A DNA stretch of 64,000 nucleotides from Taibaiella koreensis (GTDB taxonomy: Bacteria > Bacteroidota > Bacteroidia > Chitinophagales > Chitinophagaceae). The DNA lies in the NCBI RefSeq assembly GCF_003545715.1, contig NZ_QVNU01000001.1, forward strand, positions 1,231,962 through 1,295,961, in the 5' to 3' direction. Positions within the stretch are counted from its first letter, which is position 1; each line of letters starts with the position of its first letter. A program made the position numbers and the translations under genes. The notes under the pieces were generated by a model. It saw only the letters and a list, made by a program, of their open reading frames with translations, ran no database searches and had not been told where the DNA came from. Shown here piece after piece: positions 8,093 through 47,063 of the stretch.

Positions 8093-9641
8093 TTTTTACA
8101 AATTTCAAGCATTGCATTTTTTGTCCCTCCTTAAGCGTTAGGTTATAAATGCCATCAGGCAAGAAGGCGATATTCAGCTGGGACGATGACCTGCTGACAG
8201 GGCCGGAACTTAAAATTTGCCCGGCGATATTGGTAATGGTATACCCGCCATCACCGATACCCGTTACATGAAGTACGTCGTGCGCCGGATTAGGATAGAG
8301 CGTGCAACCCGTTAAGCGCCGGGCTCCTTCAATTTCCGTGGGCTTATAGCCGGTAATGTCGGGCGTCTCTTTGTACCAGAGATTGCCTACGTTGTCGAAC
8401 CATGCGGTGAGGAGGGCATTGCCGCGATTACTGCTGCTGCTCATAGCAAAAGGTACTTTCCCGGGAAGAAAGGGCGTGATCGGGTTGCTGTTGACCTGGT
8501 AAAAGGTCGAGGGTACGGTAATGGCGCCGGTGGCAAAATCGACCGGCTGCGTTACAAATATATTGTTGTTAACCAGATTCCAGCCAATGGAATAATTTTT
8601 ATTGTTGAAGCCTGTGCCGATATTCCCTACACCCGCAGCGATCGCCGTTAAAAAGTTCTCCGATGAGCTGAAAGGAGCGGAGCAATTATAGCTGCCGGAA
8701 TTGTTGAACATCCAGGTTTGTTTTACCGTACCATTTATTTTTGCGGCGACAACAGTCCAGGGAATATTGGGATTGAAAGGGGAGTAATCTACTGCCATGG
8801 CTTCAATGCGGGGGAAATGAAACGTGCCTGTGGCTAAAGAAAAGCCGCTTACTGTTCCTGAAGCGCAATTCAGGGAGGCAAAGTCAAGCGTATTGTTGCC
8901 GAGATTGCCGATAACGAGATAGGCCATGTCTACACCGGCAGCAATGCTGTAGGAGGCAGCTACGTCGGATAAAGTATTGTTGGTTCCCGAGCTTATCAGA
9001 TAAGGGCCGGATAAGCCTGCCGGATTAGCGATTTCGCCATAGGCGGCATAAACAACACTGCCTAAACCTCCTGCCTGGCTCCAGGATACAACGCAGCGAT
9101 GCATGATAGGAATACCCTGTGCGATATCGGCAAACATATCTATGTGCGGCGACTGGTCCAATGTCGGCGTGGTGGATAGCTGCACCGAAGCTGCAGGTGT
9201 ATAGGTCATGGCGCTACCGACACCATCTACATAATAAGTGTTGAGATACACACTGGTGTTCCGCAAAAAAACAACAGCAATGATACAATCGTGCGTCAGG
9301 GTAATATCATCGGCAATAACAATGTCGGCAAATGAAGCATTGGTGATCGCGGGTATATTGATTGCATTGCCGGCAAAGTCGATAGCGCTTATCCTCGCAC
9401 CCGTAGGGCTGTTCCAGGCAAAGGCTTTGATATTTCCTGATGGCGCCGGGAATTTATCGATGAACAACATGTCGCAGTTAACGCTGGGCAGATTAATGTT
9501 GGCCGTAGCGCTCAGGAACTGGTCGGGATTGGAAGGTGTGACGATCGTGGTCTGTGCCTGTAGCAGTCGGGGCGTTAGGGCAAGGATGGTTGCGCTGCAC
9601 AAGAGCAGCTTCCGGAAAAAGTTCTGGTATTGATTCAGCAT
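8088..9641 (-). CDS. secreted protein with a T9SS type-A C-terminal sorting domain (Por secretion system CTD)
   Basis: N-terminal signal peptide and a C-terminal …LYPNPAHDVLHVTG…YNLTLKEGQKMQCLKFVKK matching the TIGR04183-style CTD. Confidence 0.82.
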   Translation of the reverse strand: MLNQYQNFFRKLLLCSATILALTPRLLQAQTTIVTPSNPDQFLSATANINLPSVNCDMLFIDKFPAPSGNIKAFAWNSPTGARISAIDFAGNAINIPAITNASFADIVIADDITLTHDCIIAVVFLRNTSVYLNTYYVDGVGSAMTYTPAASVQLSTTPTLDQSPHIDMFADIAQGIPIMHRCVVSWSQAGGLGSVVYAAYGEIANPAGLSGPYLISSGTNNTLSDVAASYSIAAGVDMAYLVIGNLGNNTLDFASLNCASGTVSGFSLATGTFHFPRIEAMAVDYSPFNPNIPWTVVAAKINGTVKQTWMFNNSGSYNCSAPFSSSENFLTAIAAGVGNIGTGFNNKNYSIGWNLVNNNIFVTQPVDFATGAITVPSTFYQVNSNPITPFLPGKVPFAMSSSSNRGNALLTAWFDNVGNLWYKETPDITGYKPTEIEGARRLTGCTLYPNPAHDVLHVTGIGDGGYTITNIAGQILSSGPVSRSSSQLNIAFLPDGIYNLTLKEGQKMQCLKFVKK

Positions 9642-9818
9642 GATAATTGGTTTTATTTAAAGCGAATTTATTTAAATAATAATTCTTAAAAAAAATATAT
9701 TTTCAGAACAAAAATAAAGTAGCAAAAAGGGGGGTAGATACTTCCCTTCGTTTGCTACCCAATGTTTTTATCCCGGCTCTCAATACCGCCTTAAGGTGAG
9801 GTTGCCGTCAATTAAGAA

Positions 9819-11915: not shown

Positions 11916-12123
11916 AAAAGCATATATGATTTATTAGCAGCAGGCGCATTGCGGGGCCTGTGCTTATTGAGCAAATCAGTTTATTTGCGCATCATATATG
12001 TTCCGGCGATGGTGAAGACCGGTCAACTTGGGTTCAGGGTGGTATTATTGTGTGCCTATGAGATACTGTCCGGGGAGGAATACCCTTATGCGGCGTCCGC
12101 TTTTTTTTAAGTAATCCGGAGAT

Positions 12124-12158
12124 AAAAAAACCTGTCCCGGAAACGGGACAGGTTTTTG
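12124..12158 (-). terminator. rho-independent terminator (A-tract / hairpin / T-tract, bidirectional)
   Basis: aaaaaaa-cctgtcccg-gaaa-cgggacagg-ttttt, between the two T9SS type-B genes. Confidence 0.7.
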
Positions 12159-12175
12159 AACGGCAATTATTAGTG

Positions 12176-18887: not shown

Positions 18888-19610
18888 ATGACACAAATTT
18901 TTCCCCTTTCTGAAGGGACGTTCACGATCGGACATGACAAGATATTCCAGCCATTCAACGAAAATAGCGATGAGCTGAACGACCGGCCCGTAGGGTCGTT
19001 GCTGGTTGAAGTGCAGCCTTTTGCCGTTGTTAACGACAGGGACGTGATCCTGCTCGATACCGGGCTGGGCTTCAACAATCCCGATGGACAGGCGCATTTG
19101 CCCGGCAACCTGGCGCAGCATCATATTCATCCCGATGACGTGACTAAGGTATTGTTGTCGCATCTGCATAAAGATCATGCAGGCGGGCTCGACCTGGGCC
19201 TTTTTCCCAATGCTACCTTTTATGTGTACCGGGAAGAAATGGCTTATGCCCGTCAGGTGGGTTTCCCTTCGTATTATGTCGACGACCTGTTGCCACTGCT
19301 CGACAGCGACCGCGTACAATGGCTTGAAGGCGAAAGCGGCCTCATCGACGGCTATATCGAATACATTCATACCGACGGACATTGTCCGCAGCATATTGTA
19401 TTCAAAATACCTTCTGAAGAAGGGATCATTTTTTATGGTGGCGACGAAGCACCGCAATACAAGCAGATGAAAATGAAATATGTGGCCAAATACGATTATG
19501 ATGGGAAAAAGGCCATGCATTTGCGCGAGCAATGGGCCGAACAAGGTGCTGCAGAAGGATGGCGCTTCCTTTTCTATCACGATGTAACAACACCTGTAGC
19601 CCGATTGTAA
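18888..19610 (+). CDS. MBL-fold metallo-hydrolase
   Basis: HLHKDHAGG (HxHxDH) motif plus downstream His/Asp ligands. The 267 aa antisense ORF at 18834..19637 is rejected. Confidence 0.82.
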   Translation: MTQIFPLSEGTFTIGHDKIFQPFNENSDELNDRPVGSLLVEVQPFAVVNDRDVILLDTGLGFNNPDGQAHLPGNLAQHHIHPDDVTKVLLSHLHKDHAGGLDLGLFPNATFYVYREEMAYARQVGFPSYYVDDLLPLLDSDRVQWLEGESGLIDGYIEYIHTDGHCPQHIVFKIPSEEGIIFYGGDEAPQYKQMKMKYVAKYDYDGKKAMHLREQWAEQGAAEGWRFLFYHDVTTPVARL

Positions 19611-19611
19611 T

Positions 19612-20187
19612 ATGGATGCCGATTTGCTGGGCCGCATTATAGCGAGCCTGTTTTTTACTGCTGTAGGCAGTCTTGTGCTTTTCTTTTACCTGAAAAACCT
19701 CAGCGATCTGCTGAAAATGGTAAGCGCGCCGAATCGTCGTATGCCACCGGCGCAGGTATGGCTGCTCCTGGTGGGATTACTAAATGTGGTGCTGACCATG
19801 ATACTGCCCGTGCTGCAGTACAACGGGGTATTCGCCCTGGAATGGCTTTACTGGCTTTGCGTCTATGGCATTGCGGCTTTTGTGATCCTGTGGCAGTTCC
19901 GGATGGTTTACCGCATTGCCGACTCTATCGAGGCAGAATACGATAGCCGTTCCATTCCCATTGAGCACCGGCCCACATTCCAGACGGGAATGTTTATGGC
20001 GGCTGCGAAGGCCGCGACGCTTATCGGGATCATACCCGGCGCTGCAATAATAAGCTATCTGGCCAATATGGCTTATCTCATTGGCCTGGTCGCATACTGG
20101 GTAAGGACCCATAAGTATAAAAAGGAGCTCCGGGCCCTGGGACCGTTTACCGGTGACACGGAAAGTCTTGTCTTCAGGGATTTGTAA
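19612..20187 (+). CDS. hypothetical membrane protein (4 predicted TM helices)
   Basis: Its ATG overlaps the stop codon of the preceding MBL gene (TAATATG), and the product is hydrophobic. Confidence 0.55.
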   Translation: MDADLLGRIIASLFFTAVGSLVLFFYLKNLSDLLKMVSAPNRRMPPAQVWLLLVGLLNVVLTMILPVLQYNGVFALEWLYWLCVYGIAAFVILWQFRMVYRIADSIEAEYDSRSIPIEHRPTFQTGMFMAAAKAATLIGIIPGAAIISYLANMAYLIGLVAYWVRTHKYKKELRALGPFTGDTESLVFRDL

Positions 20188-20190
20188 TGA

Positions 20191-20916
20191 TTACAGGAGA
20201 TTGAGCCGCTCATAGACCTGCTTTTTGAACGTTTTACCTATAGGTAGCCACACACCATTGGCCAAAAGGCATTGCTCCTTTTCATTAATTGTCTCCACAT
20301 AGCGGAAATTAACGGCATAAGTACGGTGTATCTGCAATACGCCACCGGCGGGAATGCGTGTCATAAGCTCTGTAAGCGACAGCCGCACCGAGGCTTTCTC
20401 CCGCTGTATGGTATGCAGCGTGACATAATTCTTGACGTCGGCTTCCAGGTAAGTAATATCGGCCAGCGCGATGCGTCTGAGTTTGCTACCAGTACGCACA
20501 AATACATGATCCTGCTCCGTTTTTAACTCCGCTACGGGTGCCGCCGGTGTCAACGCCAGTAGCAACGCGGCTTGCAGGGCGGCCTTACCAATGGGTTTGA
20601 CCAGGTACGATTTTGCCGCCACGGCGCTGAGGGCTTCTTCGATCACTTTGTTGTTGATCTGTGCCGTGGTAAAAATGATCCGGGTATCGGGCTGCAGGCG
20701 TTGTAGCTGACTTGCCAGCATAATGCCATTGTTGCGCCCCTGCAGGTCAATATCCATCAGCACTACACCAGGCTTCAGGCGCTCGATGTCGGCCATAGCG
20801 GCGAATGGCTCTTGTTGCGATCCCGCTATGCCGTAACCCAGCTCTTCCAGCAGCATCAGCAAGTGATCCAGGTGCAGCGGCTCATCTTCTACGATATAAA
20901 TCCCTTTATTTGTCAT
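20191..20916 (-). CDS. LytR/AlgR-family response regulator (REC + LytTR DNA-binding domain)
   Basis: N-terminal receiver (IVEDEP…LMDIDL) and a C-terminal LytTR region (…ITYLEADVKNYVTLHT…). It overlaps the upstream kinase gene by 4 bp. Confidence 0.88.
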   Translation of the reverse strand: MTNKGIYIVEDEPLHLDHLLMLLEELGYGIAGSQQEPFAAMADIERLKPGVVLMDIDLQGRNNGIMLASQLQRLQPDTRIIFTTAQINNKVIEEALSAVAAKSYLVKPIGKAALQAALLLALTPAAPVAELKTEQDHVFVRTGSKLRRIALADITYLEADVKNYVTLHTIQREKASVRLSLTELMTRIPAGGVLQIHRTYAVNFRYVETINEKEQCLLANGVWLPIGKTFKKQVYERLNLL

Positions 20917-23180
20917 TCCTTATGGGTTATGGTTGCCCGATGCAGCGGAAAGTGTACGTTGACCGTGGTGCCGCTTTCCGGGCTGCTCGTCATGATTATC
21001 CGTCCCTGGTTCAGTTTTGTGAATTGACGCACCAGCGCGAGGCCGAGGCCTATGCCCTTTTCACGGCTGCTTTCCCCCGCGCTTTCTTCGGAAGCGATAA
21101 GATCCAGGTCAGGGGCAATACGGGCAGGCATGCCGGGGCCCGTATCCCGGACACGAAACAACAGCTCCCGGTCTTGCTCATGAAGCGAAATGGTCACTAC
21201 ACCACCTTTTGGGGTAAACTTAAGCGCATTGGCGATAAGGTTGCGGCAGATCAGTAAAAAGCTGCCCCGGTCGGTTACCAATGTCAGGCCTGCCGGCAAT
21301 GCTTCGATCAACCGGATCTGCTTCACGGCTGCTGTGGCCTGAAATACGGAAAGGAGTTCCCTTAGCTCCAATGATGGATCTATAGGTTCTGGTTGCAAGG
21401 TATAGCCCTTTAGCTGGGTCGTAGACCAGTAAAGCAGGTTGTCGAGTAAGTAGGACAGGCGCGTTGCGTTTTCCTGGAGTGCAAAAGCCGTATCAGTGAC
21501 CTTGTCGTAGCGTTCTTTCTGCATTTGGTATTGCATGAGCTTTCCGGCTTGCTGCAAAGGTGCTACGAGACTACGCAGGTCGTGCGAAATGATCGAAAAA
21601 AGCCTTGTTTTGACCTGGTTCAGCTCCTGCAGCTCGGCATTTTGCAGGGCCACCAACTGCCGCTGCCGGCGAACCCTGATGTTGGCCCTGATGCTGATGA
21701 AGAGCAGCAGCGCGATGATGGCGGCAACAGAAAGCGCCAGCAGTTGCCTTTGCCGGCTGCGTTTCAGCTCCTGTGCCCCGAGCAGGCGTTCCTGGGTCAT
21801 GCGCGCTATCGTTTGTTCCTTTCTGCTACTCTCGTAGCGGGTCTCCAGCTCGGCGATCTGCCGGTGTATTTCCTGCCGGTATAGGGAATCGTTGAGTGCA
21901 TGATAACGCCGGAAATGCTTCAGTGCGCTGGCGGCATCACCCTTTTGCCGGTAAGCATCGACATAGGTCTTCTCGATCCAGCCGGCAAGCTCAAGCTCCT
22001 GCAGCCGGTTATTGATCGCTTTGCTGCTATCAAGATAACGTAGGGCTGGTTCCGGTAGCTTTTCTGCCAGAGATAGCTGGGCTAGCGCTTTATACGCAAT
22101 GGCCTGTCCCCTTGTATAGCCTTCTTTTTCCCAGTCACTGAGCGCAGCCACGTAGTATTTACCGGCAGTCAGGTGATCTCTGTCGCCAAAGAATGCGGCG
22201 TCGCCCAGGCTCTTCCTCAGCGCTCCGGTATACATCGTGGTACCTTCTACCGTCTTTATCTGTTTGCTGAGCACAATCCCTTCAAGCGCCAGGGGCTTGA
22301 TCTCTCCGTAATGTCCGATCTCCTCCAGGTAGTCACAATAGACAGCGATCGCGATTAGCAGATCGGGCTTACTCTTCAGCTTCCTGCCCAGCGCGATGGC
22401 CCTGCCGGCATAGCGACCTGCCAGATCGGGCTTATTCCAGGTGAGGTACAGGTGTACCAGGTTGCCAAGGGTTGGGATCATGTGTGCCTCATCGTGCTGC
22501 AACTCTTTGAGGCGAAGTGACTCCAGGTAATAGGTTGTCGCATTTTTATAGTCATTCCTGTCTTTGTAGACCATAGCCAGGTTGTTCAGTCCCACATGCG
22601 TACGGAAGGTATCTTTCTGGCCTTTTGCATAATGGACGGCGTCGCTGTAGTAATGCTCTGCCTGAAGGTGATCGCCCGCCTCACTGTAAAGCGATCCCAT
22701 ATCGTTGAAATACTGGAACTGGTAGTCCTTTCGCTGCAGCTGCCGGGCCAGCGCATAGCCTTTCCTGTACCAGGCACGGGCTTTTTCAAAATCCTTTTTA
22801 CGGCTATGCACGCCGGCGGCAAAGTAATAAAGGTCGAGCACCGATCCCGGCAATCGCTTGTCTGTGGCCAGCTGCAGCGCTTCGTTGAAAATACGGTCTG
22901 CTTGCGCGGCATCATTTTTCCGGTAATGGAAATCATAGAGAAGCGCCATAGCATCCAGCTCGCTGGTGGTTGCGTTCTGCCGGTGTGTATATTGCCGGGC
23001 CTCGCCGGCGATCACAATAGCGCTATCCCAATCGGGTTCCAGGCTGAGCGCCCATTCCACGTAAACATCCATTTTGGCGGTAGGCCCCAAAGCCTTGTCC
23101 AGCTTCCCCGGATAGTCCTGCTGTTGCGCCAGGGCGGCAAGGCACGTCAGGGCAAGCAGTACGGTAAAACGAGCGCGCAT
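20913..23180 (-). CDS. sensor histidine kinase with a periplasmic/extracytoplasmic TPR-repeat domain
   Basis: Signal peptide (MRARFTVLLALTCLAALA), ~450 aa of TPR-like repeats, one TM helix, a HisKA (FSIISHDLRS) and an HATPase_c. I chose the start at 23180; the longer ORF to 23252 has no signal peptide. Confidence 0.82.
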   Translation of the reverse strand: MRARFTVLLALTCLAALAQQQDYPGKLDKALGPTAKMDVYVEWALSLEPDWDSAIVIAGEARQYTHRQNATTSELDAMALLYDFHYRKNDAAQADRIFNEALQLATDKRLPGSVLDLYYFAAGVHSRKKDFEKARAWYRKGYALARQLQRKDYQFQYFNDMGSLYSEAGDHLQAEHYYSDAVHYAKGQKDTFRTHVGLNNLAMVYKDRNDYKNATTYYLESLRLKELQHDEAHMIPTLGNLVHLYLTWNKPDLAGRYAGRAIALGRKLKSKPDLLIAIAVYCDYLEEIGHYGEIKPLALEGIVLSKQIKTVEGTTMYTGALRKSLGDAAFFGDRDHLTAGKYYVAALSDWEKEGYTRGQAIAYKALAQLSLAEKLPEPALRYLDSSKAINNRLQELELAGWIEKTYVDAYRQKGDAASALKHFRRYHALNDSLYRQEIHRQIAELETRYESSRKEQTIARMTQERLLGAQELKRSRQRQLLALSVAAIIALLLFISIRANIRVRRQRQLVALQNAELQELNQVKTRLFSIISHDLRSLVAPLQQAGKLMQYQMQKERYDKVTDTAFALQENATRLSYLLDNLLYWSTTQLKGYTLQPEPIDPSLELRELLSVFQATAAVKQIRLIEALPAGLTLVTDRGSFLLICRNLIANALKFTPKGGVVTISLHEQDRELLFRVRDTGPGMPARIAPDLDLIASEESAGESSREKGIGLGLALVRQFTKLNQGRIIMTSSPESGTTVNVHFPLHRATITHKE

Positions 23181-23406
23181 AGACCGGTTATAGGAAAGAG
23201 AGAATGCTGCAAATATAAAGGTATTGATCATTTGTCCACGCGGTGCAAGCATTCATCCTCACGAAATGACCCTTCGGCCACATGGTCTTACCGGAGGCGA
23301 TGGGGCGGGCCTATTTTTGATCGAAGCTACAATGCAATACTCCATAGCAACAGTGGCCCCTTTATCCCGTATCGTAGATCAGAACAAGAACTCAAAAACA
23401 TTTTTT

Positions 23407-23670
23407 ATGAAAAAGAAACAAAACAATGGCAAGCTCTTTCTAAACAAAAAGAAAATCACCGGGCTTTCTGATCCTCAAAGCACTTTTGGTGGTGGAATGA
23501 GCGGAATTACATTTATAGCATCCTGCGCAGGATCCTGTGCTTCCGATTGTATTTGCCCCACAGATCGTTGCCAGGTACATAGTATCGACAGTTGTCCTCC
23601 CCGGCCTTCCTTTATTCCGGCAAATTGCAATATTTTTTCTCTGGACAATTGCAGCCTTACGACGCCTTAA
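23407..23670 (+). CDS. GG-motif (double-glycine) leader precursor peptide A, 87 aa, with an 8-Cys Cys/Pro-rich core
   Basis: Internal start of ORF 23224..23670. Leader MKKKQNNGKLFLNKKKITGLSDPQSTFGGG resembles the Bacteroidetes GG-leader family. The core contains CPPRPSF. Confidence 0.6.
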   Translation: MKKKQNNGKLFLNKKKITGLSDPQSTFGGGMSGITFIASCAGSCASDCICPTDRCQVHSIDSCPPRPSFIPANCNIFSLDNCSLTTP

Positions 23671-23793
23671 GTCTGTTCAGGGCAGTTGTTATCAATAGAA
23701 ATAGCATCGACCTGCGTTGTACAGCCGGTCACAACAACACCTTTATTTGCCCCCACGCTACGTTAACCAAATCAACCCAAAGACAAAACCAAT

Positions 23794-24015
23794 ATGAAAA
23801 AGAAACAAAGCAATGGCCGTCTTGCCCTGAACAAGAAATGGATTACGGAGCTCTCCCATCCACAGCATGTTGCCGGTGGTGAATATTTAGATACAAGGGT
23901 ATCCTGTATTTCCCGTTGCCTGTGCCCTGTATCGGGTACCTGCCCCAGACCCTCTTTTGAGCAGCGTTGTCCTCCCTGTCCGATCAATACAATGACTTGT
24001 CCCACCCTGCCTTAA
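23794..24015 (+). CDS. GG-motif leader precursor peptide B, 73 aa, with a 7-Cys core
   Basis: Leader MKKKQSNGRLALNKKWITELSHPQHVAGG is paralogous to peptide A. The core has CPRPSF and ends in CPTLP. Confidence 0.6.
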   Translation: MKKKQSNGRLALNKKWITELSHPQHVAGGEYLDTRVSCISRCLCPVSGTCPRPSFEQRCPPCPINTMTCPTLP

Positions 24016-24047
24016 GCCGGGATTTTCTAACTTAGATAAGCATCCGT

Positions 24048-24254
24048 ATGAAAAAGCATGCGCCAAGAACAAGGCTTAGCCTGAAAAAGGTTGTCGTAAC
24101 GCCTTTAAAAGATCTGCATAAGACGGGGGGCTATCCTACACGGGAACCCTCGCTGTATTCCTGTATGTCGGAATGCAATTGTCCACGGCCCACTTATTGG
24201 ACCGTTTACTGTTGCGGCGGGCAAGGTACCTTCGTTTGCCCACACCTGCCTTAG
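24048..24254 (+). CDS. GG-motif leader precursor peptide C, 68 aa, with a 6-Cys core
   Basis: Leader MKKHAPRTRLSLKKVVVTPLKDLHKTGG. The core has CPRPTYW and ends in CPHLP. Confidence 0.55.
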   Translation: MKKHAPRTRLSLKKVVVTPLKDLHKTGGYPTREPSLYSCMSECNCPRPTYWTVYCCGGQGTFVCPHLP

Positions 24255-24278
24255 GCGCAACGAACCACATTTATTGGG

Positions 24279-24306
24279 GGCGATGTCACACGGCATCGCC
24301 TTTTTT
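24279..24306 (+). terminator. rho-independent terminator closing the three-peptide gene array
   Basis: Stem ggcgatg/catcgcc with loop tcacacgg, followed by TTTTTT, 25 bp after the peptide C stop. Confidence 0.7.
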
Positions 24307-24445
24307 GTAGCAGCATCTTGCAGCCACCAGGATTAATAGCCTGCCTTGCCGGTTTGGTCAGCAAAAACAGGTGCTTGGTCTAAAAAGATAAAAGCATGTC
24401 GGGCAGAATCACCATTTTTGCCTGCCGGACCAATCCGGCGATACC

Positions 24446-25555
24446 ATGTTGAAAAAGACCGGCAATACCATACTGAAACTATTAACGCATAGGTTGGCGC
24501 TTAACTTGTATGTGTGGTTCTTCTTTATCGATACCGTTTGGAATAATAATCATAGCAACGCTTCGGTGCCGCGTCACGACGGCCACGTCCTGCACATTGT
24601 GCTGATGCACCTGGTATGGGTGGCCATGATCTATGGCAATACCATGATCTATATACCCAGGCTGCTCATCCGGCGCAAATACGGCTGGTATCTCCTGGTT
24701 TTACTGGCACATGCCTTATTGTTTTCTCTCATCATTGGCTGGTACAGCGAATGGCTGATCGCTGCCTTCCCCGGTACCCGAAAGCTGGACTATATCGTGA
24801 TCAATATTGCCCAGCGCTCCGATATGGTCTCTTACCGGCAGTACCTGGTCAATGTGTTGCTGGGGGCGGTGGGCGATACCCTTATCCTGTTCACCATAGG
24901 GCGGTTGATGCAATACTTTTTCGTAGAACGCCGGCGCAATGAGCTGCTGGAAAAAAAGCAGCTTGAATCGGAGCTGATGCTGCTCCGCTCGCAGATCAAT
25001 CCGCACTTTCTGTTCAATGTGCTCAACAGCATTTATTCGCTCTCGCTTAAAAAATCGGATGAGGCTCCGGGCGTCATCCTGAAGTTGTCCGATATCCTGC
25101 GGTATATGCTCTATGAATCGCGCCAGGACTATGTGCCGCTCGACAAAGAGCTGCAGATGCTGCGCGACTATATTGCGATCGAGCAAATAAGGATCAGCAG
25201 TAAAGATGCCATTAGCCTGGATATCGGCGCCGACACGGGCAGCGGAAAGATAGCCCCGGCACTACTGATCGCGTTTGTGGAAAACGCGGTGAAGCATGGT
25301 CTGGATTCCCGGATGGCCGATGCCTTTGTCCGTATCAGCATCAGGGTAGCCCCGGGGCAGCTGCTGGAGTTCCAATGCGTCAACAATTATCTGCCCCGTA
25401 GCGCCGGTATGCATACCAACAAGACGGGCGGCATAGGGCTGGAAAATGTGAAGAAACGGCTGGAGTTGCTGTATCCGGGAAAACACCATCTTACCATCGA
25501 CAACGATAATACCGTCTTCCAAGTGAAGCTCACCTTAAAACTAAGTACCGAATGA
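24446..25555 (+). CDS. LytS/YehU-family sensor histidine kinase (4-5 TM sensor + His_kinase domain)
   Basis: Polytopic N-terminus, then …QINPHFLFNVLNSIYSL… (PF06580-type) and a C-terminal ATPase. Its stop overlaps the downstream regulator start (ATGA). Confidence 0.82.
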   Translation: MLKKTGNTILKLLTHRLALNLYVWFFFIDTVWNNNHSNASVPRHDGHVLHIVLMHLVWVAMIYGNTMIYIPRLLIRRKYGWYLLVLLAHALLFSLIIGWYSEWLIAAFPGTRKLDYIVINIAQRSDMVSYRQYLVNVLLGAVGDTLILFTIGRLMQYFFVERRRNELLEKKQLESELMLLRSQINPHFLFNVLNSIYSLSLKKSDEAPGVILKLSDILRYMLYESRQDYVPLDKELQMLRDYIAIEQIRISSKDAISLDIGADTGSGKIAPALLIAFVENAVKHGLDSRMADAFVRISIRVAPGQLLEFQCVNNYLPRSAGMHTNKTGGIGLENVKKRLELLYPGKHHLTIDNDNTVFQVKLTLKLSTE

Positions 25556-26247
25556 CCTGCCTTATCATCGACGACGAAATACTGGCCCAGGATGTGATCG
25601 AACATTACCTGTCGCGTACCGAGGGCCTGCAGCTGGTAGCCAAATGCAGCAATGCCCTGGAGGCCTTTGCCCTGTTGAGCAAAGAAGAGATCGATCTCAT
25701 TTTCCTGGACATACAAATGCCGGAGATCAACGGTCTCGAATTTGTCAAAATACTGAAACATCCTCCCAAGATCATTCTCACAACAGCCTATACGGAATAT
25801 GCGCTGGACGGCTACGAGCTCAATGTGGTCGATTATTTGCTGAAACCGGTATCTTTCGAACGCTTTCTGAAAGCCGTAGATAAGGCGCGCATGACAAGAT
25901 CTGCGCCGGCTGAAAAAATCCCGGCCCCATCATCCCAGGATATTTTTGTCAAATGCGACGGGAAGCTGGTACGTGTACGGGCACAGGATATCCGCTACGT
26001 GGAAGGGCTTAAAAATTATCTTATCCTACATACCACAGCCCGGAAAATGGTTGTGCACGGCACCATGAGCAATATGGAAGAGGAACTGGGCGTCTTCGGA
26101 CACTTTGTAAGGATACACAAATCTTACCTGGTCAACAAGCAATACATTACCGAGATCAGCGGCAACATGATCAGGATCGAGCAGGCAGAACTGCCCATCG
26201 GCGGCGTATACAAGCCCGAGCTGCTAAAATTGCTCAAAGTGATCTGA
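25552..26247 (+). CDS. LytTR-family response regulator
   Basis: REC domain (LIIDDE…FLDIQMP) plus a LytTR domain (…IRYVEGLKNYLILHT…). It is translationally coupled to the kinase. Confidence 0.88.
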   Translation: MTCLIIDDEILAQDVIEHYLSRTEGLQLVAKCSNALEAFALLSKEEIDLIFLDIQMPEINGLEFVKILKHPPKIILTTAYTEYALDGYELNVVDYLLKPVSFERFLKAVDKARMTRSAPAEKIPAPSSQDIFVKCDGKLVRVRAQDIRYVEGLKNYLILHTTARKMVVHGTMSNMEEELGVFGHFVRIHKSYLVNKQYITEISGNMIRIEQAELPIGGVYKPELLKLLKVI

Positions 26248-26252
26248 GCGGC

Positions 26253-27617
26253 TTATCGATCAGACGGTAGCCGCGCCCCGGCACGGCGAAAGGGCCATTC
26301 CCTGCGCATGCGCGCCTGAACGAGGTATACGGCAGCGCCTAAGGCGGTAACACCTATGCCTGCCAGCATCAGCATGGCGCCTGTAGCGAAGAACAGCGCC
26401 CCCCACATAACAATGGCCAGCACGACAGGCAACGGAAAGAGGGGCATCTTATACGGAAAGTCGGAAGCCTTGCGGCGCCGGCGCAATATCAGCAGACCGA
26501 TCGCCTGGCTGATAAACTGGATGAGGATACGCATGGCCAGTATCGCACTGATCACCTCTTTCAGTTTGAACAGAAGGCTAAATACAAAGGCTACGCCCCC
26601 GAGTACCAGCAGAGAAACATATGGAAACTTACGTGTGGGATGCAGCCGGGCAAATACTTTGAAGAAGGCGCCGTCGGCCGCGGCTGCGTAAGGAATGCGG
26701 CTGTAGCCGAGTGTGGCCGAAAATACAGACGCGAAGGCTACCCATAGGATCAATACGGTGATCACCTTTGCCGCAGTGCTGCCCATCAACTGCTGCATGT
26801 ACAGGCTAAGCACAAAGTCATGCTCCCTGATCTGGTGCCAGGGGATCACACTGGTGACACTAATATTCATCAGCAGATACAATACGGCAATGCCGGCAAT
26901 AGACAGGAACATACTGCGGGGAATATTCCGGGAAGGGTTGATGATCTCTCCGCCGAGGTGGCATACATTGTAGTAGCCCAGGTAGCTGTATACGGTCTTT
27001 ACGCTGGAATAGCCTATAGCGGCGATAAAAGCATAATTAAAGCTGAGTCCATCGTTGATGTGCCTGATGGGTTCCAGAAAACGGCCGTGCGCCAGTCCGC
27101 CGCCGATAATCCAGAACATAGTGATCAGCACGCCACCCCAGAGCAGCACACTGATCTTGCCGATAGCCTCGATCCTGCGGTACAGCAAAACGATGATAAG
27201 GACGACCACACCGCCGCTTGCAGCCTTAAACCACAAGCCGGGCAAAGGCACCAGATAAGAAAGATAGGTGGCAAATCCGATGGCCGCCGAGGCGATCACC
27301 AATGGCGCCTGGATCATCGTTTGCCATACAAACAGGAAGCTCATAAAGCGGCCCATGCCCTTAGGACCGTAGGCCTCTTTCAGGAAATTGTAAGAGCCCC
27401 CGGCTTTTGGAAAAGCCGCGCCCAATTCACTCCATACCATAGCGTCAACGAACGACAAGATGGCTCCGGCGATCCATGCATAAAGAAAATAAGGGCCGTT
27501 CATCATCCCGATCACCATAGGTAAGGTGATAAAAGGTCCTATGCCTACCATATCGATCATATTGATCGCGGTTGCCTGGCGAAGGCTCAGCCTCCTTTCC
27601 AGATCATGTTCAGCCAT
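26253..27617 (-). CDS. APC-superfamily amino acid permease
   Basis: 454 aa with 12 predicted TM helices and an N-terminal …ATAINMIDMVGIGPFITLP… typical of amino acid/polyamine transporters. Confidence 0.85.
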   Translation of the reverse strand: MAEHDLERRLSLRQATAINMIDMVGIGPFITLPMVIGMMNGPYFLYAWIAGAILSFVDAMVWSELGAAFPKAGGSYNFLKEAYGPKGMGRFMSFLFVWQTMIQAPLVIASAAIGFATYLSYLVPLPGLWFKAASGGVVVLIIVLLYRRIEAIGKISVLLWGGVLITMFWIIGGGLAHGRFLEPIRHINDGLSFNYAFIAAIGYSSVKTVYSYLGYYNVCHLGGEIINPSRNIPRSMFLSIAGIAVLYLLMNISVTSVIPWHQIREHDFVLSLYMQQLMGSTAAKVITVLILWVAFASVFSATLGYSRIPYAAAADGAFFKVFARLHPTRKFPYVSLLVLGGVAFVFSLLFKLKEVISAILAMRILIQFISQAIGLLILRRRRKASDFPYKMPLFPLPVVLAIVMWGALFFATGAMLMLAGIGVTALGAAVYLVQARMRREWPFRRAGARLPSDR

Positions 27618-27704
27618 GTATGTATGTTGCGTTCAGTTCAGGGCCTAAAGATTGCCTTTAGTTTTTACAAATCTCATTGAAAAATCTTATCAGGCATTTT
27701 GACC

Positions 27705-28064
27705 TCAGGCAATCAACTCTCCTATTTTTTCAAGGAGATCGGTCATCTGGAAAGGCTTGGAAAGGAAATCGTCGGCGCCGGCCCTGCGGGCAGAATCTTC
27801 AATGCCACGGCTGGCCGAAAACAGTATGACCGGTATGTCGCGGGTATGCTCCTGCTTCTTGAGCTGCCGGCACACCTCCCGGCCGTCGGCGCCTGCAATC
27901 CATACATCAAGAAGGAACAGGTCGGGGAGTCGCTGTGGTGTGAGCGCCATAGCGGCTGTAGGGCTATGGACCACGCTATAGCCGGCAAATTCGAGCATGC
28001 TGCCGACCATATCCAGTATGCTGGAATCGTCATCGGCTACCATGATCTGCTTAGGAGAATTCAT
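27705..28064 (-). CDS. stand-alone receiver-domain response regulator (CheY-like)
   Basis: IMVADDD…LLDVWI…KPF pattern. It has no output domain. Confidence 0.78.
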   Translation of the reverse strand: MNSPKQIMVADDDSSILDMVGSMLEFAGYSVVHSPTAAMALTPQRLPDLFLLDVWIAGADGREVCRQLKKQEHTRDIPVILFSASRGIEDSARRAGADDFLSKPFQMTDLLEKIGELIA

Positions 28065-28813: not shown

Positions 28814-30580
28814 TTAACGGTCGATCTTGCTGATCTTCTCAAACCGGTCACCGGCTTCGCCATGGTATTTGACAATATAGCTGCCGGCAGGTAACTGCTG
28901 CAGGTCGATTGTGGTTTGTGCATTGGCCGCTTCCGCCGTCAGGCAGGTTCTGCCACTAATGTCAATTATAGTCAGTGTACCGCCCGCCAGGGGTGCTGAT
29001 ACGGTCAGCCGGTTGGTCGCCGGGTTCGGGAAAACCTTAAGCTGCGACTGCGCCTGTTGGTCTGCATATACCGATACTATGGCCGAATATTTTTCCTGTC
29101 CCAGCTTTAACCGGTAATAGTTCATACCGGGTGCGGGTGAGAGATCCCTGTATTCATTGAGGGCGGGACTCCCTTTCTGCTGCACCTGTGCCAGCGGTTG
29201 AAAGCGGCGGCCGTCTATGCTGCGTTCCATGCCGATCCATCCGTTGTCCTCAGCAGCACCTGCATTCCAGGAGATCAGGTTTGCCTGGCCGTCGCGGCCG
29301 GCTTCCAGCATACTAGTGAAAGCCGGAGCGAGGTTATATTCCGCATCAAAGCTGATATTATTTCCGGTACCGCCATTCCAGGTAAATGCAGCCTGCCCGT
29401 ATTGGGGGTCGATAGCTATGCTGGGTGCAGGATCATTGTCTACGGCCACATCGGCATAATTGCTGCTGATCACCTTCCAGGCATCTGCATTCCTGTAGCC
29501 GGCTTTCAGTAAGCGCAATTCCCGGTTATCTTTTTGATAGTAGCTCATGGCAAATTGCTGATGCATAGCATCAAAGGCAATAGCGGGCTTTGCTCCGGCA
29601 GCCATTACGGAGCCTTTCCAATAGGGCGTAAAATGGGAGCGCTCGTTAGTGAACGTTACAATCGCAGCGGCTCCGTCCCGATCGTACTCTGCCAGCAGTA
29701 CAGCAGTGCAGGAGGCCGAATCATTGTCGCCTGTCGTGGATACGGCCAGCACGGGGTTACGTAGCTTCCCGGCCATTTGCGGGTCGGAGGCGCCCATTTG
29801 TACAGGTGCGGTAGTGCCCGAAGTCACACCCGAAGTATTGCGCGCCGTATATACCTTACCCCAGGCTGCTTTGGGCTGCAGGTATTCGTCCCAGGCCATA
29901 AAATAACGCCCTGCCGATGCCCTGTCGCTGCGACCGTAGCTAATGGATACATTACGGAAATAGCCGTTGCTGCTGGTTATCATATGCGGGGTCGTAAAGC
30001 TTTTACCACCATCGGTCGACGTTTGCTGCAGCAGCTGGCGGCTATCGCTTGCAGATTGGGCATACAGTAAGGAAAGGCTTGGTTCGCCGCCGGCTTCGCC
30101 CACCGGTACCGGGCTGGTCGCCAGGTCGCAGGCATAAAAGGTTCCATTAATCGTACGACGTAGCGGTTCGCCGGAAAAAGAGCCCGTGAGGGCGTTGTAG
30201 CGACGTACGAAAAGCGTTTGCGTGAGGTCTCTTTTATCACGGATAATTCCGGCGACAAACACACCGAGCGACTGCTCGTTGTTGCCGCTCACGATTATAG
30301 AAGGGGCATCAAAGGTCAAACCTGCCGTCGAAAGGTTGGTAAAGGGTTGCCAGCTGAGACCACGATCCTTCGAAACGTTGACAATAATGGCTTCGCCCGA
30401 GCGGCAGGCGCTATATATCCAGCCATTAAAGGCAATAGCCATGTCGGTCGCGCTGCAGGTCTGCTGGGTGTTGGCTATGCTTATCTGCCTGTCCAATCCC
30501 AGGCTCTGGCCATAGGCCGCGCCGGTCATCAGGCAGGACAAAACAATGCTGCTGAAGAGTACGTGTTTGTTGGTCATCAC
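28814..30580 (-). CDS. BNR/Asp-box repeat protein (sialidase-like beta-propeller) with a T9SS type-A C-terminal sorting domain
   Basis: Signal peptide, Asp-box motifs (SKDRGLSW, STDGGKSF) and a C-terminal …KVFPNPATNRLTV…G…Y…K CTD. Confidence 0.78.
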   Translation of the reverse strand: MMTNKHVLFSSIVLSCLMTGAAYGQSLGLDRQISIANTQQTCSATDMAIAFNGWIYSACRSGEAIIVNVSKDRGLSWQPFTNLSTAGLTFDAPSIIVSGNNEQSLGVFVAGIIRDKRDLTQTLFVRRYNALTGSFSGEPLRRTINGTFYACDLATSPVPVGEAGGEPSLSLLYAQSASDSRQLLQQTSTDGGKSFTTPHMITSSNGYFRNVSISYGRSDRASAGRYFMAWDEYLQPKAAWGKVYTARNTSGVTSGTTAPVQMGASDPQMAGKLRNPVLAVSTTGDNDSASCTAVLLAEYDRDGAAAIVTFTNERSHFTPYWKGSVMAAGAKPAIAFDAMHQQFAMSYYQKDNRELRLLKAGYRNADAWKVISSNYADVAVDNDPAPSIAIDPQYGQAAFTWNGGTGNNISFDAEYNLAPAFTSMLEAGRDGQANLISWNAGAAEDNGWIGMERSIDGRRFQPLAQVQQKGSPALNEYRDLSPAPGMNYYRLKLGQEKYSAIVSVYADQQAQSQLKVFPNPATNRLTVSAPLAGGTLTIIDISGRTCLTAEAANAQTTIDLQQLPAGSYIVKYHGEAGDRFEKISKIDR

Positions 30581-46213: not shown

Positions 46214-46366
46214 TTAATTCTGGCAATAGCGGCATACCGAAGGGCCGGCGGGTCCGAAGCGGCTGTGGTTAAAAGCGCCATTGTGGCCACCGGCTACTTT
46301 ATCCAATGTTGCAATGCGTAGCTTGGTAAGCGAAAGGCTTTTCCTTGTGCTGGTCTTCTTTTTCAT
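46214..46366 (-). CDS. GG-motif leader precursor peptide (50 aa) with a short CxxC core
   Basis: MKKKTSTRKSLSLTKLRIATLDKVAGG-HNGAFNHSRFGPAGPSVCRYCQN. The leader matches the Bacteroidetes GG-leader pattern (L-x-L-x-K-x-x-I-A-x-L…GG). It is an internal start of ORF 46214..46447. Confidence 0.45.
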   Translation of the reverse strand: MKKKTSTRKSLSLTKLRIATLDKVAGGHNGAFNHSRFGPAGPSVCRYCQN

Positions 46367-47052: not shown

Positions 47053-47063
47053 GACATGGAGAT

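What the first reader, a model, noticed from the sequence alone, without database searches (positions are those of the whole stretch)
20191..26247. Three tandem GG-leader, Cys/Pro-rich peptide genes between two LytTR-type two-component systems
Three small co-directional genes (23407..23670, 23794..24015, 24048..24254) each encode a ~28 aa Lys-rich leader ending in Gly-Gly. The leaders are MKKKQNNGKLFLNKKKITGLSDPQSTFGGG, MKKKQSNGRLALNKKWITELSHPQHVAGG and MKKHAPRTRLSLKKVVVTPLKDLHKTGG. Each is followed by a 40-57 aa core with 6-8 cysteines. The array ends at a clean intrinsic terminator (24279..24306). On the left a TPR sensor kinase and a LytTR regulator are transcribed divergently. On the right lies a translationally coupled LytS-type kinase and LytTR regulator. 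In Firmicutes, LytTR regulators (AgrA/ComE/BlpR/PlnC) classically control double-glycine-leader pheromones and bacteriocins. GG-leader precursors are normally cleaved and exported by C39-peptidase ABC transporters, and none is present in this window. A peptide array bracketed by two LytTR systems in a Bacteroidota genome looks like an undescribed peptide signalling or bacteriocin-like module. No modification enzyme or dedicated transporter gene lies adjacent, so the cores may mature by disulfide formation alone, or the processing machinery is elsewhere.
Basis: partly seen in the sequence, partly recalled or inferred. Interest (0 to 1): 0.78.

Follow-up and report, generated by a model that had tools for sequence, protein, structure and literature searches.

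The report
Orphan lanthipeptide-type precursor gene array
Three small tandem genes in Taibaiella koreensis encode real, conserved Gly-Gly-leader, cysteine-rich peptides of the kind Bacteroidota use as class I lanthipeptide precursors, but they sit far from any modifying enzyme or exporter, next to two sensor-regulator pairs that may or may not control them.

Summary
Three co-directional ORFs (87, 73 and 68 aa), one terminator and two flanking histidine kinase/LytTR pairs lie at the stated coordinates.

They fit the Bacteroidota class I lanthipeptide leader (NCBIfam NF038153, motif LxLxKx5L...GG). RefSeq already names the middle peptide 'class I lanthipeptide'.

Peptides with the same leader type and a C-x-S-x-C-hydrophobic-C core lie directly beside LanC in three other Bacteroidota (split LanB confirmed in one). 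The Kordia cluster shows the full layout with a C39 exporter.

In Taibaiella, Kordia and Chitinophaga they mostly occur as dispersed 'orphan' tandem arrays with variable cores among unrelated genes.

The pep1 ortholog is under strong purifying selection (pN/pS 0.19).

The full flanking arrangement is conserved only in one close metagenomic relative. Periplasmic-TPR sensors or LytS/LytTR pairs lie near arrays in three other loci.

Best reading: precursors matured in trans by LanB/LanC and a C39 exporter encoded elsewhere, probably under local two-component control.

I could not test whether T. koreensis has those enzymes. Moderate interest; a new variant of a known kind.

The parts
20191..20916 (-). 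RR1: response regulator with REC and LytTR DNA-binding domains. Its start overlaps the HK1 stop by 4 nt.
   Evidence: Pfam Response_reg 1.3e-19 and LytTR 2.6e-13. RefSeq WP_118973067.1. 64% identical ortholog in L001.
20913..23180 (-). HK1: sensor histidine kinase. It has a signal-like N-terminus, about 450 aa of TPR repeats, one transmembrane segment (about residues 503-525 of the long ORF), then HisKA and HATPase_c. The TPR domain is therefore inferred to be periplasmic. The ORF is open up to 23252, but the conserved and annotated start is 23180.
   Evidence: Pfam TPR_12, TPR_8 and HATPase_c. Best NCBIfam match is FimS-type, 169 bits, below cut-off. Hydropathy. RefSeq 755-aa product WP_162902866.1. 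49% identical ortholog in L001.
23181..23406 (.). Divergent control region. Candidate Bacteroidetes -7 boxes (TAnnTTTG) lie at 23312-23319 (+, towards the peptides) and 23210-23217 (-, towards HK1). The block CGGCCACAT at 23278-23286 is conserved.
   Evidence: Motif positions. The + strand -7 box and the CGGCCACAT block are conserved in register in the L001 intergenic region. The motif is not enriched in the window overall (44 found, 37 expected), so these are candidates only.
23407..23670 (+). pep1: 87-aa precursor with a 30-aa GG leader and a 57-aa core (8 Cys, 13 Ser/Thr, 6 Pro). Its 3' end is rearranged relative to the ortholog.
   Evidence: NF038153 22.3 bits; pN/pS 0.19 against the L001 ortholog.
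23703..23756 (+). Out-of-frame relic of the ancestral pep1 C-terminus (…SIDLRCTAGHNNTFICPH…), left in the pep1-pep2 spacer. An 89-nt insertion at about 23598-23686 carries a 24-nt tandem duplication.
   Evidence: DNA alignment with L001. Repeat families D7 and D8.
23794..24015 (+). pep2: 73-aa precursor with a 29-aa GG leader and a 44-aa core (7 Cys, 9 Ser/Thr, 8 Pro). It is the only one of the three present in the public protein collection, where it is named 'class I lanthipeptide'.
   Evidence: (NF038153 24.5 bits).
24048..24254 (+). pep3: 68-aa precursor with a 28-aa GG leader and a 40-aa core (6 Cys, 7 Ser/Thr, 6 Pro). It starts 32 nt after pep2.
   Evidence: (NF038153 13.3 bits, below cut-off, but the LxLxKx5L...GG motif is present).
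24276..24306 (+). Intrinsic terminator (GC-rich hairpin plus T-run) that closes the three-gene unit.
   Evidence: Fold of -23.4 kcal/mol, z = -3.7.
24446..25555 (+). HK2: multi-pass membrane kinase of the LytS/YehU-like type (PF06580).
   Evidence: Pfam His_kinase 1.4e-26. Hydropathy. 67% identical ortholog in L001 and L002.
25552..26247 (+). RR2: REC+LytTR response regulator, with a 4-nt overlap with HK2.
   Evidence: Pfam Response_reg and LytTR. NCBIfam best match BtsR, 142 bits, below cut-off.
46214..46366 (-). pep4: a fourth, separately located peptide with the same leader type (MKKKTSTRKSLSLTKLRIATLDKVAGG | HNGAFNHSRFGPAGPSVCRYCQN). It shows that such genes are dispersed in this genome.
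   Evidence: Regex scan. NF038153 15.3 bits, below cut-off. Not present in the public protein collection.

Best explanation
The three genes form one transcription unit of paralogous precursor peptides. They carry the leader type of Bacteroidota class I lanthipeptide precursors (LanA): a Lys-rich leader with LxLxKx5L, ending in Gly-Gly.

Proposed mechanism:
1. The leader guides the peptide to a split LanB dehydratase and a LanC cyclase. These convert the conserved Ser/Thr and Cys of the core (motif S-C-x-S-x-C-[LIN]-C-P ... R-P-S/T) into thioether rings.
2. A C39-peptidase ABC exporter with a membrane-fusion partner cuts after Gly-Gly and exports the product.
3. All of these enzymes would be encoded elsewhere in the T. 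koreensis genome and would act in trans on this array and on other dispersed arrays.
4. Transcription starts from a conserved promoter in the region shared with the divergent TPR-kinase/LytTR operon. It is probably controlled by that system, whose periplasmic TPR domain could sense the exported peptide. That would be autoinduction of the NisRK/SpaRK kind.

Shown: the genes, their paralogy, leader-family membership, purifying selection, the lack of enzymes in the 64 kb, and conserved local synteny and promoter in one relative.

Inferred: maturation in trans, thioether chemistry, the regulatory link and the ligand.
For: Leader:
- NF038153 scores above cut-off for pep1 and pep2.
- LxLxKx5L plus GG is present in all three, as described for Bacteroidetes class I LanAs with C39 proteases (PMC7268733).
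- Peptides lying beside LanC score in the same range on this model: L119 21.3, L080 26.5 and L065 41.8 bits.

Core:
- The motif S-C-x-S-x-C-L/I-C recurs in distant homologs. Only 23 hits were found among 1.84 billion representatives. The central Ser is present in all 13 HMM-derived members that carry the motif.
- The peptide in locus L119 (…NSCESRCLC…) lies 305 bp from LanC, next to a split LanB. Kordia locus L019 has …VSCVSRCICP… against pep2 …VSCISRCLCP….

Dispersal as a general pattern:
- Tandem arrays of 2-5 peptides with this leader and different cores occur in T. chishuiensis, T. helva, a Chitinophaga MAG and several Kordia. Their neighbours are mostly unrelated genes.
- Kordia genomes carry a LanC / LanB-N / LanB-C / TPR-AraC / LanA x3 / MFP / C39-ABC cluster.

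Real genes: pep1 against its L001 ortholog gives pN 0.15, pS 0.82 and pN/pS 0.19. The flanking kinases and regulator give 0.35-0.46.

Regulation:
- The order RR / TPR-HK / divergent peptide / LytS-HK / RR is conserved in L001 and L002.
- The -7 box and an upstream block are conserved.
- TPR sensors sit next to such peptides in T. helva L117 (TPR-HisKA_3 kinase directly downstream), in Kordia L019 (TPR-AraC) and inside the Kordia clusters.
- A LytS-type kinase/LytTR pair is divergent from a four-peptide array in Chitinophaga L093.
Against: - LanB, LanC and a C39 exporter were not shown to exist in T. koreensis. The LanC search listed only 120 of 1284 hits and none was from Taibaiella. The held part of the Walker supplement has no Taibaiella entry.
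- That supplement's list of LanC-adjacent precursors contains none of the core strings tested (SQCLC, SECLC, SRCLC, SDCIC, SKCIC, SRCIC). The link between this core motif and LanBC therefore rests mainly on L119.
- L119 was found with a DNA pattern that forced part of the motif. Its pairwise similarity to pep2 is modest (E = 4e-4).
- The leader is not class-specific. The L065 peptide also passes TIGR04149, the rSAM-modified RiPP model.
- Cys counts are mostly even (8, 6, 8), which also fits disulfides.
- Most arrays of the family have no sensor next to them. LytTR and TPR regulators are, to my knowledge, numerous in Chitinophagaceae. L001 has a lipoprotein gene and a beta-lactamase-like gene inserted between the peptide gene and the two kinases.
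- No convincing LytTR-type direct repeat was found.
Confidence: 0.45

Rival explanations
1. The peptides are as in the best explanation (lanthipeptide-type precursors matured in trans), but the two flanking two-component systems have nothing to do with them. The adjacency is inherited synteny in one lineage.
For: - Seven of the loci looked up around family members have neither a LytTR system nor LanBC within up to 10 kb on each side (less where a contig ends).
- Most neighbours in the 8-kb genome blocks are unrelated genes.
- L001 has other genes inserted between the peptide gene and each kinase.
- No orthologs of HK1 were found outside L001 and L002, so co-occurrence cannot be tested.
Against: - The promoter elements in the region shared with the HK1 operon are conserved although synonymous sites are saturated.
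- Sensors recur next to arrays in L117, L019, L093 and inside the Kordia clusters. My rough estimate is that chance alone would give fewer than one such case among about 15 loci.
Confidence: 0.2
2. One reading: unmodified (disulfide-only) Gly-Gly-leader peptides that act as bacteriocins or pheromones. They would be exported by a C39 transporter encoded elsewhere and sensed through the LytTR systems, as in Blp/Com/Pln of Firmicutes.
For: - GG leaders next to kinase/LytTR pairs, and synteny conserved in L001.
- Even Cys counts in pep1 and pep3.
- No enzyme in the window.
- The leader family also occurs on non-lanthipeptide RiPP models.
- No Taibaiella entry among LanC-associated precursors in the held part of the Walker supplement.
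Against: - Generic bacteriocin leader models do not hit.
- The kinases are not HPK10-type.
- pep2 has 7 Cys.
- Ser residues interleaved with the Cys are conserved across very divergent members. That is expected for dehydration sites and not for disulfide knots.
- Pattern-matched peptides with a similar core motif sit beside LanBC.
Confidence: 0.2
3. The peptides are precursors of another RiPP class that shares the Bacteroidota GG leader, for example radical-SAM-modified peptides. The modifying enzyme would lie elsewhere, possibly the B12-binding radical SAM protein at 47612-49810.
For: - A B12-rSAM protein with weak similarity to RiPP C-methyltransferases (TIGR03975 85 bits, PhpK family 88 bits) lies 1.2 kb from the fourth leader peptide.
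- One peptide lying beside LanC also passes TIGR04149.
Against: - The rSAM scores are far below the cut-offs of 282 and 600 bits.
- The enzyme is 23 kb from the array.
- TIGR04149 does not hit pep1-3.
Confidence: 0.07
4. The ORFs are decaying remnants of a lost gene cluster and are no longer functional.
For: - The pep1 3' end is rearranged by an 89-nt insertion, leaving an out-of-frame relic.
- pep1, pep3 and pep4 are absent from the public protein collection.
- No enzymes are nearby.
Against: - pN/pS is 0.19 with saturated synonymous sites for both leader and core.
- Reading frames, start codons, the promoter box and the terminator are intact.
- Three paralogs are retained.
Confidence: 0.05

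Closest known systems
Bacteroidota class I lanthipeptide precursors with LxLxKx5L / Gly-Gly leaders (NCBIfam NF038153, Pfam PF28317 Lant_leader_dom). Examples are pinensins of Chitinophaga pinensis and PedA15 peptides of Pedobacter lusitanus. Described by Walker et al. 2020, PMC7268733.
   Same: Leader sequence family and motif. Gly-Gly end. Ser/Thr/Cys-rich cores. Several different precursors side by side.
   Different: Described members lie within a few genes of LanC, a (split) LanB and a C39 exporter. Here none is present within 64 kb, and the neighbours are two two-component systems. No product is known.
Prochlorosins / ProcM (class II lanthipeptides of marine cyanobacteria)
   Same: Many precursor genes with a conserved leader and hypervariable cores, scattered in the genome far from the single synthetase (stated in PMC7268733).
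   Different: Nif11-type leader and a LanM enzyme. A different phylum. Trans-maturation is proven there and only inferred here.
Nisin and subtilin autoinduction (NisRK, SpaRK)
   Same: Lanthipeptide structural genes next to a sensor kinase/regulator pair. The proposed logic is that the mature peptide induces its own gene.
   Different: There the regulators are OmpR-type and the kinases have no TPR domain, all inside the biosynthetic cluster (my knowledge). Here there is a TPR periplasmic sensor plus a LytTR regulator, and the cluster is absent.
LytTR-controlled double-glycine peptide systems of Firmicutes (BlpRH/BlpC, ComDE/CSP, PlnBCD)
   Same: Gly-Gly-leader peptide genes beside a kinase and a LytTR regulator.
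   Different: Those use HPK10 kinases, short unmodified pheromones, an adjacent C39 ABC exporter and 9-bp direct repeats in promoters (my knowledge). None of these was found here.
Kordia class I lanthipeptide clusters (L130, L141): LanC / LanB-N / LanB-C / TPR-AraC regulator / LanA x3 / MFP / C39-ABC
   Same: Same leader type. Tandem LanA genes. A regulator with an N-terminal signal-like sequence and TPR repeats directly next to the LanA genes.
   Different: The regulator output is an AraC helix-turn-helix rather than a kinase with a LytTR partner. Enzymes and exporter are adjacent.

Membership tests
Bacteroidota class I lanthipeptide precursor (LanA; NF038153 / LxLxKx5L-GG type) | Leader matches the family HMM above its curated cut-off (22 bits) | tested here: met
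   pep1 22.3 bits and pep2 24.5 bits. pep3 scores 13.3 bits and fails the cut-off.
Bacteroidota class I lanthipeptide precursor (LanA; NF038153 / LxLxKx5L-GG type) | LxLxKx5L motif followed by a Gly-Gly cleavage site | tested here: met
   L10-x-L12-x-K14-x5-L20 and GG are present in all three peptides.
Bacteroidota class I lanthipeptide precursor (LanA; NF038153 / LxLxKx5L-GG type) | Core contains both Cys and Ser/Thr in numbers that allow thioether rings | tested here: met
   Cys versus Ser+Thr: 8 vs 13, 7 vs 9, and 6 vs 7. The Ser of S-C-x-S-x-C is conserved across homologs.
Bacteroidota class I lanthipeptide precursor (LanA; NF038153 / LxLxKx5L-GG type) | LanB dehydratase and LanC cyclase encoded in the same gene cluster | tested here: not met
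   No Lant_dehydr_N/C or LANC_like domain in any scanned ORF of the 64-kb window. tblastn with LanB and LanC from L119 and Kordia finds nothing in the window.
Bacteroidota class I lanthipeptide precursor (LanA; NF038153 / LxLxKx5L-GG type) | LanB, LanC and a C39 exporter present somewhere in the same genome | not testable with these tools
   The rest of the T. koreensis genome could not be searched. The LanC search output was truncated at 120 of 1284 hits.
Bacteroidota class I lanthipeptide precursor (LanA; NF038153 / LxLxKx5L-GG type) | Mature product carries lanthionine or methyllanthionine | not testable with these tools
   This needs mass spectrometry.
LytTR-regulated double-glycine pheromone/bacteriocin locus (Blp/Com/Pln type) | Leader matches the generic double-glycine bacteriocin leader models | tested here: not met
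   The NCBIfam scan at E up to 10 returned only NF038153. It returned no TIGR01847 and no pheromone families. Pfam gave no hit.
LytTR-regulated double-glycine pheromone/bacteriocin locus (Blp/Com/Pln type) | Adjacent response regulator with a LytTR domain | tested here: met
   RR1 and RR2 both carry PF04397.
LytTR-regulated double-glycine pheromone/bacteriocin locus (Blp/Com/Pln type) | HPK10-type polytopic peptide-sensing kinase | tested here: not met
   HK1 has TPR, HisKA and HATPase_c domains. HK2 has the PF06580 LytS-like domain, with only a weak HATPase_c_5 match below cut-off.
LytTR-regulated double-glycine pheromone/bacteriocin locus (Blp/Com/Pln type) | C39-peptidase ABC exporter and accessory protein in the locus | tested here: not met
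   None in the window.
LytTR-regulated double-glycine pheromone/bacteriocin locus (Blp/Com/Pln type) | Paired 9-bp direct repeats about 21 bp apart upstream of the peptide promoter | tested here: inconclusive
   One imperfect pair (CATTTGTCC and CATTCATCC at 23229 and 23250, read) is no better than chance by my estimate and overlaps possible start codons. It is not conserved in L001.
TIGR04149 (GG_sam_targ_CFB) radical-SAM-modified RiPP precursors | Match to the TIGR04149 model and an adjacent radical SAM maturase | tested here: not met
   No TIGR04149 hit for pep1-3. The only radical SAM gene is 23 kb away and is of a different, B12-binding type.

The most novel reading that the evidence does not exclude
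Bacteroidota such as Taibaiella, Kordia and Chitinophaga may run a prochlorosin-like combinatorial system for class I lanthipeptides. Many dispersed tandem arrays with one leader type and hypervariable cores would be served in trans by one LanB/LanC/C39-exporter set. Individual arrays would be wired to their own periplasmic-TPR sensor (kinase plus LytTR regulator here, AraC-type one-component regulators in Kordia) that recognises the exported peptide. Each array would then be a private, self-inducing signal or weapon.
Probability: 0.2. Interest if true: 0.7.

Novelty: new variant of a known kind. Interest (0 to 1): 0.45.

Why it matters
Genome mining for lanthipeptides normally looks only a few genes around LanC. 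Walker et al. used seven genes either side.

If precursor arrays like this one are matured in trans, much of the peptide repertoire of Bacteroidota is being missed. [quoted passage not shown]

pep1, pep3 and pep4 are absent from the public protein collection queried.

The locus also offers a testable case of a periplasmic TPR sensor kinase with a LytTR partner. That combination is, to my knowledge, common in Bacteroidota and has no known ligand. Its candidate ligand would be encoded next door.

If T. koreensis instead has no LanBC, the RefSeq name 'class I lanthipeptide' is wrong for this whole group of peptides. The leader would then mark a broader export class.

Tried and rejected
- I replaced it with a hand-made degenerate DNA pattern. 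Most were chance matches in AT-rich genomes; 14 were true family members. T. koreensis itself was not among the rows returned.
- A LanC profile search meant to reveal a Taibaiella LanC returned 1284 hits, of which only the best 120 were listed. All named hits were Flavobacteriia, Bacteroidales or unclassified Bacteroidota, so it says nothing about T. koreensis.
- A metagenome scan for HK1 orthologs gave only generic kinase-core matches at 21-37% identity. The reverse co-occurrence test could not be done.
- Attempts to extend the window with the look-up of encoding contigs failed because the exact products are not on record.
- Literature: no paper combines Taibaiella with lanthipeptide. Brinkmann et al. 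give 16 gene clusters for T. koreensis but no types. Bothwell et al. 2021 is not held.
- Rfam found nothing in 19000-28000.
- I looked for LytTR-type direct repeats and found only a pair that chance would explain.
- TPR domains of HK1, the T. helva kinase and the Kordia regulator share only a juxtamembrane coiled-coil-like stretch. They are not specifically related.
- The 148-aa TTG-started ORF 23224-23670 was rejected as the true pep1 gene, because similarity to L001 begins only just upstream of the ATG at 23407.

Full report
**1. Observation**

The leader sequences are as quoted.

- The cores have 8, 7 and 6 Cys; 13, 9 and 7 Ser+Thr; and 6, 8 and 6 Pro.
- A strong hairpin with a T-run follows at about 24276-24306. 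It folds at -23.4 kcal/mol (z = -3.7) and no shuffle folds as well. The simple terminator scanner missed it.
- Left flank, minus strand: a kinase with TPR, HisKA and HATPase_c domains, and a REC+LytTR regulator. The two overlap by 4 nt.
- Right flank, plus strand: a PF06580 (LytS-like) kinase and a second REC+LytTR regulator, also overlapping by 4 nt.
- Exact look-ups show the window is Taibaiella koreensis.
- RefSeq starts the TPR kinase at 23180 (755 aa). This agrees with where similarity to its ortholog begins.
- RefSeq names pep2 'class I lanthipeptide' (WP_162902867.1). pep1 and pep3 are absent from the collection.

**2. More than chance, and real genes**

- The genes are paralogs at DNA level. 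Leaders are 71% identical over 72 nt, and a core block is repeated three times.
- A metagenomic contig (L001, 6970 bp) carries an ortholog of pep1 that is 76% identical over the best BLASTP alignment.
- Over the 63 alignable codons, synonymous sites are saturated (pS 0.82) while pN is 0.15. The ratio is 0.19 and is similar for leader (0.16) and core (0.21). It is lower than for the flanking kinases and regulator, which give 0.35-0.46.
- These ORFs are therefore translated and constrained.

**3. What the leader is**

- NCBIfam gives a single hit for all three peptides: NF038153 'lant_leader_L1a, class I lanthipeptide'. Scores are 22.3, 24.5 and 13.3 bits against a cut-off of 22.
- TIGR04149, TIGR01847 and the local Pfam copy give nothing.
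- Walker et al. (PMC7268733) describe a leader motif LxLxKx5L for Bacteroidetes class I LanAs. It often ends in Gly-Gly and is accompanied by a C39 protease in the cluster. All three leaders fit it exactly (L10, L12, K14, L20).
- Peptides that lie directly beside LanC elsewhere score in the same range on NF038153: 21.3, 26.5 and 41.8 bits.
- One of these also passes TIGR04149. The leader therefore marks the Bacteroidota GG-export class more reliably than it marks one chemistry.

**4. The core family and its genomic contexts**

A full HMMER search of 1.84 billion representative proteins found only 23 hits. Many share C-x(1-2)-S-C-x-S-[QED]-C-L-C, often followed by P-C-C-P. Several are named 'class I lanthipeptide' in T. 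chishuiensis.

Contexts of seven such peptides, looked up with up to 10 kb on each side (less where the contig ends), show no LanB, LanC, C39-ABC or LytTR system. The genomes include T. chishuiensis, T. helva, a 5.3-Mb genome and several metagenomic contigs.

A degenerate DNA pattern (leader plus C-x-S-x-C-hydrophobic-C) scanned over GTDB genomes gave 14 true members:

| Group | Loci |
|---|---|
| Kordia | seven loci |
| T. chishuiensis | two loci |
| T. helva | L117 |
| Chitinophaga MAG | L093 |
| Saprospiraceae MAG | L065 |
| Bacteroidales MAG | L080 |
| Flavobacteriaceae MAG | L119 |

- In L119 the peptide (…NSCESRCLC…) is 305 bp from LanC and next to Lant_dehydr_N. A 70%-identical homolog of the Kordia Lant_dehydr_C gene follows.
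- LanC is also adjacent in L080 and L065.
- None of the Taibaiella or Kordia blocks contains LanB or LanC.
- The orphan loci are usually tandem arrays with unrelated cores:

| Locus | Peptides in the array |
|---|---|
| L003 | 2 |
| L004 | 2 |
| L005 | 3 |
| L011 | 2 |
| L019 | 2 |
| L055 | 5 |
| L070 | 3 |
| L079 | 3 |
| L093 | 4 |

- The window itself holds a fourth member at 46214-46366 (-).
- Kordia genomes do carry a complete cluster: LanC, LanB-N, LanB-C, a TPR-AraC regulator, three LanAs, an MFP and a C39-ABC exporter. I could not show this for the same Kordia assemblies that hold the orphan arrays.

**5. The window has no maturation genes**

- All ORFs of 500 aa or more, and most of 250 aa or more, were scanned. 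They encode T9SS cargo proteins, a Mur ligase/alanine racemase fusion, an amino-acid permease, an SPFH protein, a beta-lactamase, a DEAD helicase, a TonB receptor and others.
- The only candidate enzyme is a B12-binding radical SAM protein at 47612-49810. Its matches to RiPP C-methyltransferase and PhpK models are far below cut-off. It is 23 kb from the array but 1.2 kb from pep4.
- Whether T. koreensis has LanB, LanC or a C39 exporter elsewhere could not be tested. This is the main gap.

**6. The two-component systems**

- L001 and L002 keep the order RR1 (64% identical), TPR-HK1 (49%), divergent peptide, HK2 (67%), RR2.
- In L001 a 135-aa lipoprotein-like gene sits between HK1 and the peptide gene. 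A beta-lactamase/T9SS gene sits between the peptide gene and HK2.
- The intergenic regions share a -7 box (TATTTTTG and TACTTTTG). They also share an upstream block, CGGCCACAT, at similar spacing (25 and 28 bp). A conserved rightward promoter therefore exists.
- No -7 box precedes pep2 or pep3, and one terminator follows pep3. This suggests a single tricistronic unit.
- HK1 has a signal-like N-terminus and one transmembrane segment after the TPR region. The TPR domain should therefore face the periplasm. HK2 is a multi-pass membrane sensor.

Sensors recur near such peptides elsewhere:

- In T. helva L117 a TPR-HisKA_3 kinase lies directly downstream on the same strand.
- In Kordia L019 TPR-AraC regulators flank an orphan pair whose core, VSCVSRCICP, nearly matches pep2 VSCISRCLCP.
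- The Kordia clusters contain TPR-AraC regulators beside the LanAs.
- In Chitinophaga L093 an operon of S41 peptidase, LytS-type kinase and LytTR regulator (39% identical to RR2) is divergent from a four-peptide array.

Against this, most arrays have unrelated neighbours. The TPR domains are not specifically related to each other. No HK1 orthologs beyond L001 and L002 were found. I regard the regulatory link as plausible but unproven.

**7. Mechanism proposed**

The array encodes class I lanthipeptide-type precursors.

1. LanB glutamylates and eliminates the conserved Ser/Thr.
2. LanC closes thioether rings with the conserved Cys.
3. A C39 exporter cuts after Gly-Gly and secretes the product.
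4. All of these act in trans from another locus.
5. HK1/RR1, and possibly HK2/RR2, set the transcription level, perhaps in response to the exported peptide.

Steps shown: gene structure, family membership of the leader, selection, absence of local enzymes, and conserved promoter and synteny. Steps inferred: everything biochemical and regulatory.

Rivals are set out in the rival explanations section:
- incidental adjacency of the sensors;
- unmodified disulfide peptides under LytTR control;
- another RiPP chemistry;
- gene decay.

**8. Comparison with the known, and novelty**

- The peptides are members of a described leader family, and one of them is already annotated.
- They fail the cluster criterion for lanthipeptide membership, because LanBC is not adjacent.
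- They resemble prochlorosins in dispersal, and nisin or subtilin in having a sensor next to the structural gene.
- They do not meet the defining features of Firmicutes LytTR pheromone loci apart from the LytTR regulator itself.
- In the papers searched here I found no description of dispersed orphan arrays of class I-type precursors in Bacteroidota, or of their pairing with TPR sensors. Walker et al. limited their search to seven genes around LanC. A Bacteroidales survey mentions TPR and HK/RR genes in some GG-motif clusters (PMC10352776).
- I rate this a new variant of a known kind with moderate interest (0.45).

Noticed in passing
window 45532-49810: A fourth peptide with the same leader type lies at 46214-46366 (-): MKKKTSTRKSLSLTKLRIATLDKVAGG followed by a 23-aa core with 2 Cys. 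It sits 88 bp upstream of a Crp/Fnr-like regulator (45532-46125, -). Two small membrane proteins without family matches (46636-47052 and 47064-47420, -) separate it from a 732-aa B12-binding radical SAM protein (47612-49810, +). That protein weakly resembles RiPP C-methyltransferases. This may be a separate RiPP locus.
   Followed up: partly
window 23598-23756: Relative to the L001 ortholog, pep1 carries an 89-nt insertion containing a 24-nt tandem duplication (23611-23658). The insertion gives pep1 a new C-terminus and stop codon. The ancestral C-terminal coding sequence (…SIDLRCTAGHNNTFICPH…) survives out of frame in the pep1-pep2 spacer.
   Followed up: yes
window 23407-23670, 24048-24254, 46214-46366: pep1, pep3 and pep4 are not present as exact sequences in the 15-billion-protein collection, whereas pep2 is. 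They appear to be unannotated, or annotated with other starts, in public records.
   Followed up: partly
window 23181-23252: The mechanical ORF for the TPR kinase starts at 23252. The N-terminal 24 residues are not conserved in L001, and RefSeq starts the protein at 23180. A candidate -7 box for it lies at 23210-23217 (-).
   Followed up: yes
L093 2410-7878: In a Chitinophaga MAG, an S41 peptidase, a LytS-type kinase and a LytTR regulator lie in tandem on the minus strand. They are transcribed divergently from four tandem GG-leader peptides with unrelated cores. One of the cores is …CYSCMSQCLCDPPPP…PCCP.
   Followed up: partly
L117 1412-3924: In T. helva, a 93-aa peptide of the family (…SCQSECLCP…) lies immediately upstream of a TPR-HisKA_3 sensor kinase on the same strand.
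   Followed up: partly
L130 8503-21218 and L141 6495-17218: Kordia lanthipeptide clusters begin with a sigma-70 region 2 protein and a TPR protein (possibly a sigma/anti-sigma pair). They also contain TPR-AraC regulators with signal-like N-termini next to the LanA genes.
   Followed up: no
L065 6805-6963: A peptide lying next to LanC passes both NF038153 (41.8 bits) and TIGR04149, the rSAM-modified RiPP model (30.2 bits, cut-off 25). Leader-only models therefore cannot assign RiPP class in Bacteroidota.
   Followed up: no
window 8088-14719 and 28814-30580: Several large secreted proteins carry type IX secretion C-terminal domains (CHU_C or Por_Secre_tail). One of them has PKD repeats.
   Followed up: no
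window 14967-17498: An 843-aa fusion of a Mur ligase (N-terminal, middle and C-terminal domains) with a complete alanine racemase.
   Followed up: no
window 24276-24306: The consensus terminator scanner reported no + strand site here, although the hairpin plus T-run is clear by folding. Negative results from that scanner should not be trusted.
   Followed up: yes
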